The notes below the pieces were generated by a model. That model was not told where the DNA came from and did no database searches. It saw nothing but the letters and a program-made list of their open reading frames with translations. DNA of 63,072 bases, counting the filler, from Octopus bimaculoides (lineage: Eukaryota): the NCBI RefSeq assembly GCF_001194135.2. It is 6 parts of 5 records of this genome, joined end to end, with 100 filler letters (N's around TTAATTAATTAA, not from the genome) between each part and the next. Parts side by side here need not be neighbours in the genome. Positions count along the whole stretch, not along the records: positions 1 to 14,871 come from NC_068989.1; positions 14,972 to 26,628 come from NC_068990.1; positions 26,729 to 45,200 come from NC_068984.1; positions 45,301 to 58,796 come from NC_068986.1; positions 58,897 to 60,567 come from NC_068992.1; positions 60,668 to 63,072 come from NC_068984.1. One strand, 5' to 3'. Positions 7,826 to 60,903 of the stretch are shown here, one piece after another. The position numbers were made by a program, and so were the translations under genes. Every line of letters begins with the position of its first letter. Position 1 is the first letter of the stretch.

Positions 7826-8148
7826 TACTGTTGTGTCTGGGGAGAAGCATTCTCTTTTAGTGCCTTATAATTTAACACACTCACCAGTAAAATTTCCACA
7901 TATTTCCTTCATTTTTCTAAAATTTTCGTTGCATCTTGCAATCTTTTCAATAGTTTTCACTATTGAAAAGGTTGCAAGACACAATGAAAATTTTAGAAAA
8001 ATAAAGAAGGAAATAAGTGGAAATTTTACTGGAGCGTGTGTTAAATTATAAGGCACTAAAAGAGAATGACTCTCCCCAGACACAACAGCATATGCTTCAA
8101 CACACGAACTCACATAAAGAATCTTGCTAACCAAATCCAAAAACGAAA
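7826..8148. mobile_element. Palindromic insertion (arms of about 127 bp) with 14-bp TSD
   Basis: Arms 7828-7953 and 7960-8088 are reverse complements around a TTTTCA spacer, followed by a 60-bp unpaired tail. TATATTATGTAATA is repeated at 7812-7825 and 8149-8162. Confidence 0.85.
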
Positions 8149-8603
8149 TATATTATGTAATACTTTTAGATTTTATTTTCTAAATATTCTAAGGTATAAA
8201 CTTTTGTATCTTTTGTTATTACAATAGAGTGCAGTTAATTAATCATCAGCTAATTAGGCAGTTCCCCTAATTTTTCATTTTTTGAAATTACTTTTAGTAA
8301 TTACAATAAAATTCAGTTAATTAATCATCAGCTTATTAGCCAGTTCTTCTAATTTATCACTCTTTAACAGTTCTCATCTTTTAAATTTATTGTACAAAAC
8401 TGTTCAGCTAATTTGTAAGTTTGTCTAATTAGTCATTTTTTTTTCTGTATTTAAAGTAATAAATTAGCCAAATTCTACTTAAATAAGTAGAGTGTTATTT
8501 GTAAACTATAATAAAATAATTTTTAATATTCAAATTTTAATTTTAGCTGCAATATTTTAAGTAAAAAGTTTCTTATTCTTTACTTTACTAGAAGTAATAG
8601 CTT

Positions 8604-8886
8604 ATTTACATTATTTACATTTAACGGATATTTGTCCTCATCTTGTTTGTTGTTAACACAATGTTTTGGTTGATATTCCTTCCAGCCTTCATCGGGTGTC
8701 TTGAGGAAATTTTGAACCTGGGTTCTCATTCCTAAGGTATTATTATTATTATAATAACATTAAAAAATACCTTAGGAATGAGANNNNNNNNNNACGTTGT
8801 GTTAACAACAAACAAGATGAGGACAAATATCCATCAAATGTAAATAATGTACATAATTCCTCATCTCTTAAATATCGAACTGTATT
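8604..8886. mobile_element. Palindromic insertion (inverted pair of a short repeat) with 12-bp TSD and a degenerate hammerhead-like motif
   Basis: AAGTAATAGCTT at 8592-8603 and 8887-8898. The left half (8607-8740) is the reverse complement of the right half (8766-8850). The minus strand at 8655-8700 reads GACAC-CCGAUGA-A-GGCUG..CAACC-AAAA-CAUU-GUGUU. Confidence 0.8.
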
Positions 8887-10940
8887 AAGTAATAGCTTGT
8901 CCTATACTTTTACAGGTGTAATAACTTGTCCTGTACTTTTCCATGTTTATAATCTTAAGAATATTACTTTTCATGCTCACATTTTCCCATGTAATCCATG
9001 ATTTTTTCAGGCATTGCTGTTATAAGATAATTAATAATGTGTCAATTAATAATTTAAGATTTTAACTTATAAAATACTGAAAGATAATATTTCAATTTTT
9101 CCATGTAAGTGATGATAGTATTTCAATTTTTTTCATGTTTAATTTAAATATATGTTGTGATTGAATTACTTGATATTATCTATCCACACCGAATTAATAG
9201 CAGGGATTTTTACCATCTTGTTAGTTGCACCATGGCTCACCAAAAGTTACAAACAACAAGACCCCAAAACCATCTGTTACCAGGCTCACTTTAAGTAACC
9301 TAGATTTTGAGTTGGTGACTGCTGCTAATCTAGATCTATCAATAATTATTCAATACAACAGTAATTATAAAAGCATATCCGATATATACAAGTTAAAATT
9401 AACTACATCCCATTAATATAAATTTGATTTATAAAAAATCCCTTTTAATTAATTTTGAAATTTAAAAAGTATAAGCACGTTTAACCAATGCCTTTTCTGG
9501 ACAGCCTTACTTCATAGAGACATAGAGACAACCAAAAATGACTATATTCCTGCCCCAATAAATTTAGATGTATATATCTGAAGCATATAATACATTAATG
9601 AACTAGCCTGATTAAGTAACTAAAAAGAAAAGGAAAGCAAGTAAAAAGGAAAAGCAGAAAGTAAGTTAATTAAAGATGAAAGAGAAAATTAATAATAAAA
9701 GTTAAACTTACCCTAATTCAACAGCATATTAAAAATAACTTTATTAAATATTTAATTAAAAAAATAAAATATACAAAAGGATGAAAAGCAAAGTCGACCT
9801 CGGTGGAATTTGAACTCAAAACATAACGACAGACAAAATACTGCTAAGCATTTCCCCTAGTGTGCTAACGTTTCTGCCAGCTGACCGCCTTGGAATGTAA
9901 ACATTCGTTTTAGAAATATATTCTTAAAATTAATTAAAATGAATGAAAAAAGTAATTCTAATATTAAAGAATAATTTCAAAATAAAAATAGCGTTTTAGA
10001 ATTTTTTTAAGAATGTACTATAGCAACAAGCCTAGCAAGAAGAGAGAGAGAATGAGAAGTGAAGAATTAAGAGTAATTATAACAAACAATGGATTAATAA
10101 AACTATTTCTTTGCTTGGAGCATAACTCTCTTACTTCCTTACTTATTTTACATTTCATGACATTTTACCTCAACATTTTGCTACTAATTTTTGTTGAATG
10201 TGACTAACGATTCTGAATTCCTCATGCATTTTTCTATCATTTATGTTAATTGAAAATGAACACCTGCCTTATTGCCCACTTCAGGGCTCACATAATTTGA
10301 TGTAACTTTTTTTTCTACTGAACCAAATCTCAAACTATATATTCCAAAGTGTAGCTGAGAAGGTGTCCTCTTTAAAACTGTTAACAGTTTGCAATTTAGT
10401 TGAGAACTGAATTAGTGGTGAAGCTTGGAAGCTGCTGCAATTGACGAAATGGTGGACTTAAGAATATATTCAACCACTACCATGGTTGAATGATAAAGGA
10501 TGGGAGCATAGGAAGAAAAACTAGAATTAAGGGGATATAGTTAATTGTGATATGGAGGAGGCAATAGAGGAAAGTAACATATCAATTGGTTAGCTATTGT
10601 AGTGTTGGGAAATAAATCCTTGCCTTTTGGGTTGCACTCTACAATAGGTAACTTTTATCTTCTGTCCCCTCACTATTTTCTATTTACCTTTTTGTACATT
10701 GAGAATAAACTCTGACACATCAACAATGTCATCTTTATCTCTCTTTCCAGCTCTACCATATCTATTCCCACCCTATATTAACATATGGTAGCCATGAATA
10801 TCTTCTCTAACTACAAACTTGTTTCTGTCCTTCCTGTCATATTTTAACTTCTCAACACCTTGCATAAAGTTAAAGCTAAAACAAAACAACTGACACGAAC
10901 AATACACACACAATATACACACAATTAACCTAATACTCAG

Positions 10941-11510
10941 GTGACTGGATTGATGCCATACCTGTGGCTGATGTTAGTGGCCTACTCAGCTTGGATGAAC
11001 TTTGTGTCTCCATTGCCCTCAGAGTGGGAGCTGACGTATGCACGGGTTTGATCTGTTGTTGTGACAGGCTCCTTGACTACAAAGGCCTCCATGGCCTTTC
11101 TTGCCATTTGAATGCTGGTTGCTTCACACGTCATACAGAGTTGAACCTGATACTCAAGAGGAGCTTGGCCCAGACAAACATCCCCTCCATCTTGGAACCA
11201 TCTGGATTGTCCAGATGTGATGGGAAGAGATCTGATAGCCTCACCCTGTGCCCCTGGTCACAAGGGTCACAGCTTCTGCAGCCGAGTGGAACAAAATCCT
11301 GAAATACTGCGATCTGTCTGCCAACTACATTTTTCCATCCTGTGGTGTTCGAGATGTTTGGTGGGGTCGGACCACTAACTGCAAGATTCTTGACTTCACT
11401 GGCAACTCACCTTGCAGAGGTAACTGATGAGGCTCATGAGGTTGCTTGGTTGTTCCAGCGCATCAGCGTCACAATCACCCAGTACTGCAAGCATGTTGGT
11501 GTGTCTCAAT
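10941..11510 (+). mobile_element. CRE-like non-LTR retrotransposon 3-prime fragment (zinc knuckle plus restriction-like endonuclease)
   Basis: HGLSC..RHTELNLILKRSL..EPSGLSRCDGKRSDSLTLCPWSQG, then AAAEWNKILKYCDL..FEMFGGVGP..EVAWLFQRISVTI. This fits the GKRPDG/QRIS pattern of CRE-clade elements, with an internal deletion. Confidence 0.75.
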
Positions 11511-11954
11511 AGCCATTACAGGGGTTTCCCAGTGCCACCAAGTTTTCAACCCAAAGTGGTGAATTGTTTTGGTTTTTTTTCTTCTTTCTCTTTTTCTTTT
11601 TCTCTTTTTTTTTTTCTTTTTTCAATTGTGTTCTCTGTTTTGTCCAGTTTTCTAGTTTGATTCTGTAAAACGGTAAACACTGTGAAGGCAATAAATTTTT
11701 TTTTTCAAAAAAAAGATTCAAAATAAATATACACACATACACATTTACATGTAAAACACTCATAACACATAAATCTAATATTTTCTAATTAGTGGGCTTC
11801 TAAATTTGGGGTGAAATTATTTTATCAGTTTTCCATAAGTAAAAATTAACACTATAAGCTTACTTTGATTGGAACCATTTTCATTTAACCAGTAAATTTT
11901 AAAATAATTATATTAATTAAAACCTGAAATATAATTCCCTTGCTTATTTTTTAG

Positions 11955-59635: not shown

Positions 59636-59817
59636 TTGCAAAAATTCTTTGTTGTTATTGAATGCACTGATGAGTCACATACTAAATTAGCCCTAAGACT
59701 AACCAATTGGTTGTGAGTGTACATAGAAACACACACACACACTAAGTCAACCGTTACCTTGCAAAGAAATTTGATAGTTGGCAACTGAGAAAAAAGGGTG
59801 TTATATATATCATCGTC

Positions 59818-60330
59818 AACATCATCATCATCATTTAACGTCTGTCTTCCATGCTGGCATGGGTTGGACGGTTTGACCCATAGCTGGTGAGGCCAAGGGC
59901 CACAACATGCTCCATTGTCTGTTTTGGTATGGTTTCTATGGCTGGATGCCCTTCCTAAAGCCAACCACTCCACAGAGTGTACTAGGTGCTTGCAATGTGA
60001 CACCAATATCAGTGCTTTTCATGTGGCACCAGCCCCAGTACAAATTCTTGAGTACAACAAGCTACCAGATATTTTGGTCTTTTGTCATCTCCTTCATAAG
60101 GCTTGGTGTCTTGAGATCATCCTTCAGCGCTTCGTCCCGTCTTCCTGGGTTTCCCTCTTCCACACGTCCCCTTTAAGTAATCAGCACATCTGCATATAGC
60201 TGTCTACATCCATTCACATCACATTACCAAATCAGAGCAGTTCTCTCTGTTGCACATACATACAGACATTGCACATCCAGTGGAGCATACTAGCTTTATT
60301 CCTATCCAGCCTTTGCACGTCTTCTGCATT
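59818..60330 (-). mobile_element. RTE-clade LINE 3-prime relic
   Basis: (CAT)n tail plus TTTAACGTC..TTCCATGCTGGCATGGGTTGGAC 3-prime end, and a coding remnant similar to 13200-13540. Confidence 0.75.
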
Positions 60331-60384
60331 CATATATATATATATATATATATATATATATATACACACACACATATATATATA

Positions 60385-60567
60385 TCATCATCATCATCAT
60401 CATCGTTTAACGTCCGCTTTCCATGTTAGCATGGGTTGGACAATTTGACTGAGGACTGGTGAAACCGGATGGCAACACCAGGCTCCAGTCTAATTTGGCA
60501 GAGTTTCTACAGCTGGATGCCCTTCCTAACGCCAACCACTCAGAGAGTGTAGTGGGTGCTTTTACGT
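60385..60567 (-). mobile_element. RTE-type 3-prime end (LINE tail or derived SINE); a further copy lies at 61032-61170
   Basis: (CAT)n-CGTTTAACGTCCGCTTTCCATG..GGATGCCCTTCCTAACGCCAACCACTC, matching 3230-3405 and 12640-12830. Confidence 0.8.
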
Positions 60568-60858
60568 NNNNNNNNNNNNNNNNNNNNNNNNNNNNNNNNN
60601 NNNNNNNNNNNTTAATTAATTAANNNNNNNNNNNNNNNNNNNNNNNNNNNNNNNNNNNNNNNNNNNNAAAAACAAATACAAGCGAACACGTATTAACAGA
60701 GAATATAGGTGATATAGACACTCCCCATACACACATGCACTTACAAAAGACACAGACACATTGAAGGACACGCATGCGTAGACACATACAATAGGAATAC
60801 AAAATACAAAATGGCTGATAGTTAGCAAGGTGAGACACATAAGAAAGAAGGAAACAAA

Positions 60859-60903
60859 GGACCACTGATGAAGTCACAGAAGTGTGACGAAAGAACTCTG
60901 GCC
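60859..60903 (+). ncRNA. Minimal hammerhead ribozyme motif (Penelope-like pLTR type)
   Basis: GGACCA-CUGAUGA-A-GUCACA(GAAG)UGUGAC-GAAA-GAAC-UC-UGGCC. Perfect 6-bp stem II, very short stem III, CUC triplet, stem I GGACCA/UGGCC with one bulge. Confidence 0.65.

What the first reader, a model, noticed from the sequence alone, without database searches (positions are those of the whole stretch)
7826..60903. Synthesis: at least four unrelated hammerhead-bearing repeat families in 63 kb with no Penelope ORF in sight
Seen: hammerhead-type modules at 8655-8700, 15743/48555, 41638 and 60859 (tentatively 7960) share core order but no stem sequence. None is next to a recognisable RT or GIY-YIG ORF, and two occur as inverted TSD-flanked units. 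Known: Penelope-like elements and retrozymes use hammerheads. Inference: this genome may hold a diverse, abundant population of short non-autonomous ribozyme-carrying retroelements that repeat libraries label as unknown. I cannot tell from the sequence whether this has been described for cephalopods.
Basis: inference. Interest (0 to 1): 0.75.

Follow-up and report, generated by a model that had tools for sequence, protein, structure and literature searches.

The report
Penelope transposon stubs, one tRNA-headed
The small self-cutting-RNA motifs here are real and abundant, but three of the five families are the short end-pieces of protein-coding Penelope-type jumping genes whose genes lie elsewhere in the genome, a known situation; the unusual twist is that one of these jumping genes carries a tRNA-like segment that likely acts as its promoter.

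Summary
The hammerhead motifs are real: 15 descriptor hits against about 1 in shuffles in 855 kb of random genome. They are mostly not a population of independent ribozyme parasites. Three of five families run directly into RT plus GIY-YIG Penelope-like (PLE) ORFs elsewhere in this genome. A fourth (7960) shares its 3' end with one of those, so it is not unrelated. The fifth (41638) has two or three old relatives and no parent found. Inverted arms, optional 35-55 nt tails, 12-14 bp TSDs and TA-repeat targets are textbook PLE insertion marks. Many unrelated minimal-hammerhead families per genome, mostly without ORF, were published in 2014, and one octopus PLE hammerhead is listed in a 2021 supplement. 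The interesting residue is the 8655 family: a Poseidon-type element with a tRNA-like A/B-box segment between stop codon and hammerhead. 26 of 36 short arms that reach it begin there, and the 2.4-kb ORF has no four-T run (P about 0.02). RNA polymerase III transcription is plausible but untested. This scan noted the same family before on other DNA.

The parts
7812..7825 (+). left 14-bp target-site duplication of the family-5 insertion
7826..8148 (.). family 5: head-to-head pair of PLE-type ends; only the + arm carries the tail (about 8089-8148)
   Evidence: tail and 3' region homologous to family 4
7917..7953 (-). decayed hammerhead-like module, U3-A8 core variant, 3-bp stem I
   Evidence: read; family form
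7960..7996 (+). decayed hammerhead-like module, U3-A8 core variant
   Evidence: read; family form
8149..8162 (+). right 14-bp target-site duplication
7024..7209 (-). inverted paralogue of the family-1 flanks without the insertion (empty site, one copy of the 12-bp target)
8592..8603 (+). left 12-bp target-site duplication of the family-1 insertion
8604..8886 (.). family 1: head-to-head pair of ends of a Poseidon-type PLE; cut inside the AAT repeat, so this copy lacks the tRNA-like head; 10-N assembly join at 8784-8793; tail on the + arm
8655..8700 (-). minimal type I hammerhead of family 1, core damaged in this copy
   Evidence: intact copies
8887..8898 (+). right 12-bp target-site duplication
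15659..15838 (-). family 2 stub (pseudo-LTR of a Neptune-type PLE), hammerhead at about 15743-15779, A6U core, partly decayed
41638..41684 (+). family 3 hammerhead, canonical core, one stem II mismatch; 2-3 old relatives only, no parent ORF found
41915..42033 (-). tail fragment of a family 4/5-type PLE end, no hammerhead
48453..48620 (-). family 2 stub ending in a TA repeat, hammerhead at about 48555-48590, A6U core, passes the descriptor
60668..61019 (+). family 4: 3' end of a young PLE (copies 98-100% identical), hammerhead at 60859-60905, ends in a TA repeat; 5' side cut by the edge of the stretch

Best explanation
At least three of the five hammerhead families are the terminal repeats (pseudo-LTRs) of different protein-coding Penelope-like retrotransposons, and the short copies are likely dead-end by-products of those elements' own copying rather than independent parasites. 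Shown: family 1 is the end of a Poseidon-type element, family 2 of a Neptune-type element, family 4 of a third element with a cysteine linker; each carries a minimal type I hammerhead 100-170 nt from its end. Inferred, by analogy with the anole element PAc: the RT/GIY-YIG protein nicks AT-rich DNA and starts reverse transcription inside its RNA at two sites just past the hammerhead (giving the optional tail); started in the upstream pseudo-LTR it runs off the RNA's 5' end after 150-300 nt, so short copies pile up at a fixed 5' point; fold-back synthesis gives the head-to-head pairs. In family 2 that fixed point likely marks an ordinary start site, onto which RT also joined other RNA pieces; in family 1 it coincides with a tRNA-like A/B-box segment that likely serves as an RNA polymerase III promoter (about 50%). 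The hammerheads would cleave only as dimers or with protein help; their role in the cycle is unknown in print and untested here.
For: Family 1: of 25 loci chosen by the endonuclease region, 20 continue into the tRNA-like head and 18 of these into the hammerhead; 2 break off at the head's first bases, 1 before it, 2 run into gaps; none reaches the hammerhead without the head. One randomly drawn 10-kb stretch (L277) holds the whole 2.4-kb ORF from the tail onward, and L061 shows the frame opening just before the hammerhead, as in PAc; homologues carry PF00078, PF26215 and in some PF01541. Family 2: L125 holds N-terminus, RT, GIY-YIG, 3' UTR and hammerhead in order; L094, L097, L102 have the hammerhead repeat upstream of the ORF start. 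Family 4: endonuclease C-terminus directly upstream in L115 and L122, RT in L116 and L137; an 803-aa octopus protein 89% identical has RT, Cys linker and the start of GIY-YIG. Insertion marks: tails, inversions, TA targets, TSDs. Fixed 5' ends: family 1, 26 of 36 head-reaching arms start at model 305-334, tRNA-like +1 being 324; family 2, 6 of 22 arms start at model 364-367 and 6 of 20 ORF-start loci are chimeras joined to that same point, 2 through an oligo(A). Only 3 of 78 tail-bearing arms continue into shared downstream sequence.
Against: No parent ORF was found for family 5 (only a longer AC-rich UTR in L217, L220, L132) or family 3. Family 4's ORF was seen only in pieces separated by gaps. 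Pfam scores of the fragments stay below the curated cut-offs, so PLE identity rests on motifs, order and homologues, and clades were not placed on a tree. Short copies greatly outnumber ORF-bearing ones, which independent amplification would also give. My test for subfamily markers separating short from ORF-bearing family-1 copies was crude, with many rows unscored. The 5' pile-up in family 1 sits on a natural hairpin that could stop or fold back the cDNA without any promoter. Arms of one pair are not independent, and two of the three samples were best-hit selections.
Confidence: 0.82

Rival explanations
1. One reading: the short units are self-standing non-autonomous ribozyme retroelements (retrozymes or PLE-dependent SINEs) that are transcribed from their own copies and borrow PLE enzymes.
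For: Short copies dominate; family 1 has an internal A/B-box promoter layout that travels with each full stub; family 2 has internally deleted derivatives; no parent found for families 3 and 5; vertebrate retrozymes derive from PLE pseudo-LTRs.
Against: Three families are contiguous with their own ORFs; no tandem arrays in the window or printed loci; stubs end at the RT start sites and lack the downstream RNA that PAc needs in vitro; family 2 deletions have different breakpoints, so they are separate accidents, not one family; RNA reads lie on both directions about equally with no start or end pile-ups (library type limits this).
Confidence: 0.13
2. For family 1 only: the tRNA-like segment is a passive old SINE insertion in the 3' UTR; short copies stop there because the hairpin at its first bases stalls RT and primes fold-back, and the element uses an ordinary polymerase II promoter.
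For: Many inversions are centred on that hairpin; the head is followed by an AAT repeat like a SINE tail; ARAGORN and Rfam do not call it a tRNA; family 2, with no tRNA head, also has a fixed 5' point and somewhat few four-T runs in its ORF.
Against: Some non-inverted copies also begin at 323-327; A and B boxes are kept in most copies shown; head-to-tail region and whole ORF lack four-T runs (0 against 3.2 expected in synonymous shuffles, P = 0.019).
Confidence: 0.4
3. The motifs are chance matches in AT-rich repetitive DNA.
For: Three of six window sites fail the descriptor; Rfam shows no hammerhead among the listed matches.
Against: 15 against 1.0 in random genome samples; same position in each element; compensatory changes in stem II and at C3-G8/U3-A8 between homologous families 4 and 5.
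Confidence: 0.02

Closest known systems
Minimal hammerheads of metazoan Penelope-like elements (Cervera and De la Pena 2014, PMC4209133; parts 1-2 of 4 and supplement passages read)
   Same: Thousands per genome, several unrelated consensus families, mostly single and without ORF, opposite-strand pairs 100-700 bp apart, extra base after A9, palindromic mini stem III, U3-A8 variant; molluscs Lottia and Crassostrea included.
   Different: No cephalopod in the text or the one supplement file searchable; the A6U core of family 2 is not mentioned in the parts read.
Poseidon PAc of Anolis (Frangieh et al. 2024, PMC11167929; parts 1-2 of 4 read)
   Same: ORF starts at the hammerhead, tail lies a short way into the ORF and marks two RT start sites, AT-rich targets; family 1 has this layout.
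   Different: No tRNA-like segment is described for PAc in the parts read.
Octopus PLEs Hydra-1_Obim and Naiad_Obim (Craig et al. 2021, PMC8557442; passages and supplement rows)
   Same: Octopus PLEs with TA-repeat targets; supplement File S2 lists a hammerhead in Hydra-1_oBim; inverted 5' copies and 30-40 bp tails described as general PLE traits.
   Different: Its hammerhead stems differ from all five families here; families 1, 2 and 4 are not Hydra-type by RT motifs.
Animal non-LTR retrozymes (bioRxiv 10.64898/2026.07.22.740005; part 1 of 5 and term search; supplements closed)
   Same: Short, type I hammerhead, derived from PLE pseudo-LTRs.
   Different: Defined by tandem arrays of two or more units; not seen here. 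No mollusc terms in the text.
Schistosome Sm-alpha/Sj-alpha (passages in review PMC6765202) and Helenus TRIMs (passages in PMC10886601)
   Same: Polymerase III-type promoter ahead of a hammerhead (Sm-alpha); tRNA-like sequence inside a terminal repeat (Helenus).
   Different: Both are non-coding; in family 1 the tRNA-like segment is a fixed part of a protein-coding PLE.

Membership tests
Endonuclease-positive Penelope-like element | Single ORF with PLE-type RT and C-terminal GIY-YIG, contiguous with the hammerhead end | tested here: met
   Family 1 (L277, L156) and family 2 (L125). Family 4 in pieces only.
Endonuclease-positive Penelope-like element | Same ORF link for families 3 and 5 | tested here: inconclusive
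   No ORF found; family 5 homologous to family 4's end; family 3 has 2-3 relatives.
Endonuclease-positive Penelope-like element | Partial tandem: pseudo-LTR upstream of the ORF start | tested here: met
   Family 1: L061, L158, L277; family 2: L094, L097, L102. Not seen for family 4.
Endonuclease-positive Penelope-like element | 5' truncation, inverted 5' arm, optional tail on one end, short TSD or microsatellite target | tested here: met
Endonuclease-positive Penelope-like element | Clade placement (Poseidon, Neptune, Nematis) by RT phylogeny | not tested
   Assigned by motifs and by eye against the supplement alignment; no tree built.
Minimal type I hammerhead of PLEs | Core boxes, stems I and II, 1-2 bp mostly palindromic stem III, above shuffled background | tested here: met
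Minimal type I hammerhead of PLEs | Self-cleavage as dimer or with protein | not testable with these tools
   Needs in vitro assay; A6U and U3-A8 variants especially.
Animal non-LTR retrozyme | Tandem arrays of two or more hammerhead units | tested here: not met
   Window self-comparison and printed loci show single or head-to-head copies; no genome-wide tandem search was run.
Animal non-LTR retrozyme | Circular or precisely ended short RNA | tested here: inconclusive
   One standard paired RNA-seq set: no start/end pile-ups, both directions equal; such libraries lose short and circular RNAs.
tRNA-derived SINE (family 1 head) | tRNA-like A and B boxes at the 5' end of short copies | tested here: met
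   Alignment to this genome's tRNAs, best scores 17 against shuffled maxima 6-7; 5' pile-up. Donor tRNA not identified; only 5 amino-acid types sampled.
tRNA-derived SINE (family 1 head) | Non-coding family separate from its helper | tested here: not met
   The head is part of the ORF-bearing element.
tRNA-derived SINE (family 1 head) | Transcription by RNA polymerase III | not testable with these tools
   Indirect only: no four-T run.

The most novel reading that the evidence does not exclude
An autonomous, protein-coding Penelope/Poseidon retrotransposon of octopus has swapped in a tRNA-derived RNA polymerase III promoter inside its pseudo-LTR; it sheds about ten thousand SINE-like 290-nt copies of its own tip, and its whole 2.7-kb unit is free of polymerase III terminators, so even the coding RNA may be a polymerase III product.
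Probability: 0.3. Interest if true: 0.75.

Novelty: new variant of a known kind. Interest (0 to 1): 0.4.

Why it matters
The synthesis as given is a known phenomenon seen in a new genome. Two things would matter if confirmed. First, a coding retroelement run from a tRNA-type promoter would blur the SINE/autonomous divide and offer a direct route by which PLE-dependent SINEs arise. Second, the fixed 5' ends and oligo(A)-joined chimeras give a cheap genomic readout of PLE start sites and template jumping, a poorly understood part of the PLE cycle. Practically, these stubs are easy to mislabel as SINEs, MITEs or unknown repeats in cephalopod libraries, and the head-to-head pairs put double-stranded RNA into host transcripts.

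Tried and rejected
Rfam scan of the window and of four loci: no hammerhead or tRNA among the matches listed, mostly microsatellite noise. ARAGORN: 0 genes in 9 family-1 loci. Early idea that family 1 is a free-standing tRNA SINE: dropped when the ORF was found upstream. Idea that family 5 is a MITE or fixed palindrome: dropped, tail is on one arm only and longer one-sided copies exist. Splice-acceptor explanation of family 2's fixed point: most parent copies lack AG there. Family 3: DNA and pattern searches gave 2-3 copies. The 803-aa homologue does not overlap the L115 endonuclease fragment, it ends earlier. Run finder: no holder on record as RNA among indexed runs; one raw RNA set laid twice gave reads in both directions and no pile-ups, uninformative on short RNAs and possibly from another species. 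Subfamily-marker tally was too crude to decide. A per-family count of intact cores and a dimer folding check were not completed, so the share of intact copies and dimer stability remain open. Lunse et al. 2017 was not held, so A6U may be described there. Literature searches without a description of a tRNA-promoter PLE or a survey of cephalopod PLE hammerheads; Repbase and Dfam could not be consulted.
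Full report
Setting. The window is a pack of six stretches with 4,448 N. The modules map to different places of G000: families 1 and 5 on C9, family 3 and family 4 on two distant parts of C4, the 48555 copy on C6. The genome is probably an octopus, inferred from an 89% identical Octopus protein. I number the families: 1 (8655), 2 (15743 and 48555), 3 (41638), 4 (60859), 5 (7960).

Are the motifs real? The other three sites are decayed copies, read by eye. 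In 100 random 10-kb stretches (855,081 non-N bases, drawn from 24 large contigs) a stricter descriptor gave 15 hits against 1.0 in 20 shuffles: 5 of family 1, 3 of family 2, 1 of family 4, 5 of four further families and 1 likely chance. That extrapolates to roughly 30,000 intact-looking motifs, with wide error. First-look candidates, lower bounds, were 3,190, 3,277, 2, 1,426 and 2,933 for families 1 to 5. The window is richer than the random sample by about threefold (my rough count).

Insertion marks. The family-1 unit is flanked by a 12-bp duplication, present once in an empty-site paralogue 1.5 kb away; the family-5 unit by a 14-bp duplication. Family 4 copies share a 3' end, differ at the 5' end, sit in TA repeats and carry an optional tail of about 45 nt, sometimes on an inverted arm. 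Families 1 and 5 show the same. These are the traits described for PLEs in PMC8557442 and PMC3846280 (passages).

Finding the ORFs. No PLE ORF lies in the window, but they lie elsewhere. Family 2: an ORF start was seen upstream in L029; searching with it gave L125 with N-terminus, RT, GIY-YIG, UTR and hammerhead in order, and loci with the hammerhead repeat upstream of the ORF. The RT matches by eye a row next to Neptune elements in the supplement alignment of PMC8557442 and has a cysteine linker. Family 4: an endonuclease C-terminus precedes the UTR in L115 and L122, RT in L116 and L137; the nearest database protein has RT, a cysteine linker and the start of GIY-YIG. Family 1: RT and GIY-YIG run directly into the end, with 2,206 candidates for the endonuclease region; L277, from the random sample, holds the whole ORF, broken by a few frameshifts and stops, and L061 shows the frame opening about 36 nt before the hammerhead core and running through the tail, the layout of Poseidon PAc. 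Pfam hits of the fragments are weak and below cut-off; 129 longer homologues were found, and those listed carry PF26215 and mostly PF00078. Family 5 aligns with family 4 over the tail and the region before it and has a similar AC-rich UTR in longer copies, but no ORF was reached. Family 3 remains an orphan.

Why so many short copies? Their 5' ends are not random. In family 2, 6 of 22 arms chosen by the hammerhead start within 4 nt of one point 83 nt before the core, and 6 of 20 loci chosen by the ORF start are chimeras that join different ORF positions to that same point, two through an oligo(A) stretch. I infer that this point is the RNA's 5' end, where RT runs off or jumps to another RNA. 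With RT starting at the tail inside the upstream pseudo-LTR, as shown for PAc in vitro, the product is exactly such a stub. PAc needs RNA beyond the RT start sites; only 3 of 78 tail-bearing family-1 arms continue into that sequence, so most stubs are likely dead ends. This step is inference.

The tRNA-like head. In family 1, about 30 nt after the stop codon lies a 74-nt segment with A and B boxes, then an AAT repeat, the ORF start and the hammerhead. It aligns to this genome's tRNA-Arg and tRNA-Ala with scores of 17 against shuffled maxima of 6-7 but is not called by ARAGORN or Rfam. It is present in 20 of 25 endonuclease-selected loci and never skipped; 25 of 30 head-selected loci go on to the hammerhead. 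Among 70 arms from three samples not chosen for the head (the window's own locus and the query locus left out; a few loci missed the anchor), 36 reach the head region: 26 start at model 305-334, 2 (one insertion) at 278, 8 inside the head; 31 stop further downstream and 3 at gaps. Longer copies do exist: 2 of 7 incidental arms reached into the ORF. The 291-nt head-to-tail region and the 2,377-nt ORF have no run of four T on the sense strand; synonymous shuffles of 2,067 nt expect 3.2 (P = 0.019), and 30 other ORF pieces (20.6 kb, related, not independent) hold 3 private ones. Against: the dinucleotide-shuffle P is 0.063, family 2's ORF pieces are also somewhat low (P 0.09-0.29), the test was prompted by an earlier scan note, and a hairpin at the head's first bases could explain the stop. 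The window's own copy lacks the head.

Expression. One pooled raw RNA-seq set gave 11,010 and 2,366 reads on families 1 and 4, about equal in both directions, with no places where many molecules begin or end. This fits passive inclusion in host transcripts and says nothing on short or circular RNAs.

What is known. PMC4209133 (parts 1-2 of 4 read) already reports thousands of minimal hammerheads per metazoan genome in several unrelated families, mostly single, some as opposite-strand pairs, and the U3-A8 variant (one supplement file not searchable). A hammerhead in an octopus Hydra PLE is listed in the supplement of PMC8557442; 235 type I hammerheads were counted in giant squid (passage); PLEs are annotated and recently active in O. 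vulgaris, with no mention of hammerheads (passages). Retrozymes are tied to PLE pseudo-LTRs in vertebrates (no mollusc or tRNA terms). Polymerase III plus hammerhead is known from non-coding schistosome repeats and tRNA-like sequence in terminal repeats from Helenus. I found no paper on a coding PLE with a tRNA-type promoter or on an A6U core; subscription papers, Repbase and closed supplements may hold one. Octopus tRNA-derived SINEs of Ohshima and Okada 1994 were seen only as a reference title.

Verdict. Observation largely right, interpretation mostly superseded: these are ends of several Penelope-like elements. The tRNA-headed Poseidon family is a new variant worth a bench test. Earlier notes of this scan split between 'SINE parasite' and 'PLE with tRNA promoter'; my calls support the second.

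Noticed in passing
family 2, window 48555-48590 and 15743-15779; loci L023-L042: The whole family has U instead of A at hammerhead position 6, kept in the ORF-bearing copies too; no paper on this variant found.
   Followed up: partly
L090, L096, L086, L087, L095, L029: Chimeras join different ORF positions, twice via oligo(A), to one landing point in the pseudo-LTR; L034, L039 and L028 show an extra G there, a possible copied cap.
   Followed up: partly
L139:1807-3592 (G000 C4, about 4.5 kb upstream of window 60668): Decayed Hydra-type PLE RT and GIY-YIG with an asparagine-rich stretch, outside the window and unrelated to family 4.
   Followed up: partly
L221, L255, L297, L260, L220: Four further hammerhead families in the random sample, three with the U3-A8 core, two with 3-bp stem III.
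   Followed up: no
L261, L291, L292, L294: Older relatives of families 4 and 5 with intermediate hammerhead stems, useful for a covariation series.
   Followed up: no
protein P0131: A predicted octopus protein with PF11977 contains a short piece 93% identical to family 4's RT, probably a PLE fragment in a gene model.
   Followed up: no
window 8784-8793, 51880-51889, 61772-61781, 39169-39178: 10-N joins sit inside palindromes or short duplications, so the centre of the family-1 unit and some duplications may be assembly artefacts.
   Followed up: no
window 2658-3399 / 12648-13415 and 39179-39831 / 50239-50860: Two other repeat pairs of 650-800 nt (74% and 84% identical), not identified.
   Followed up: no
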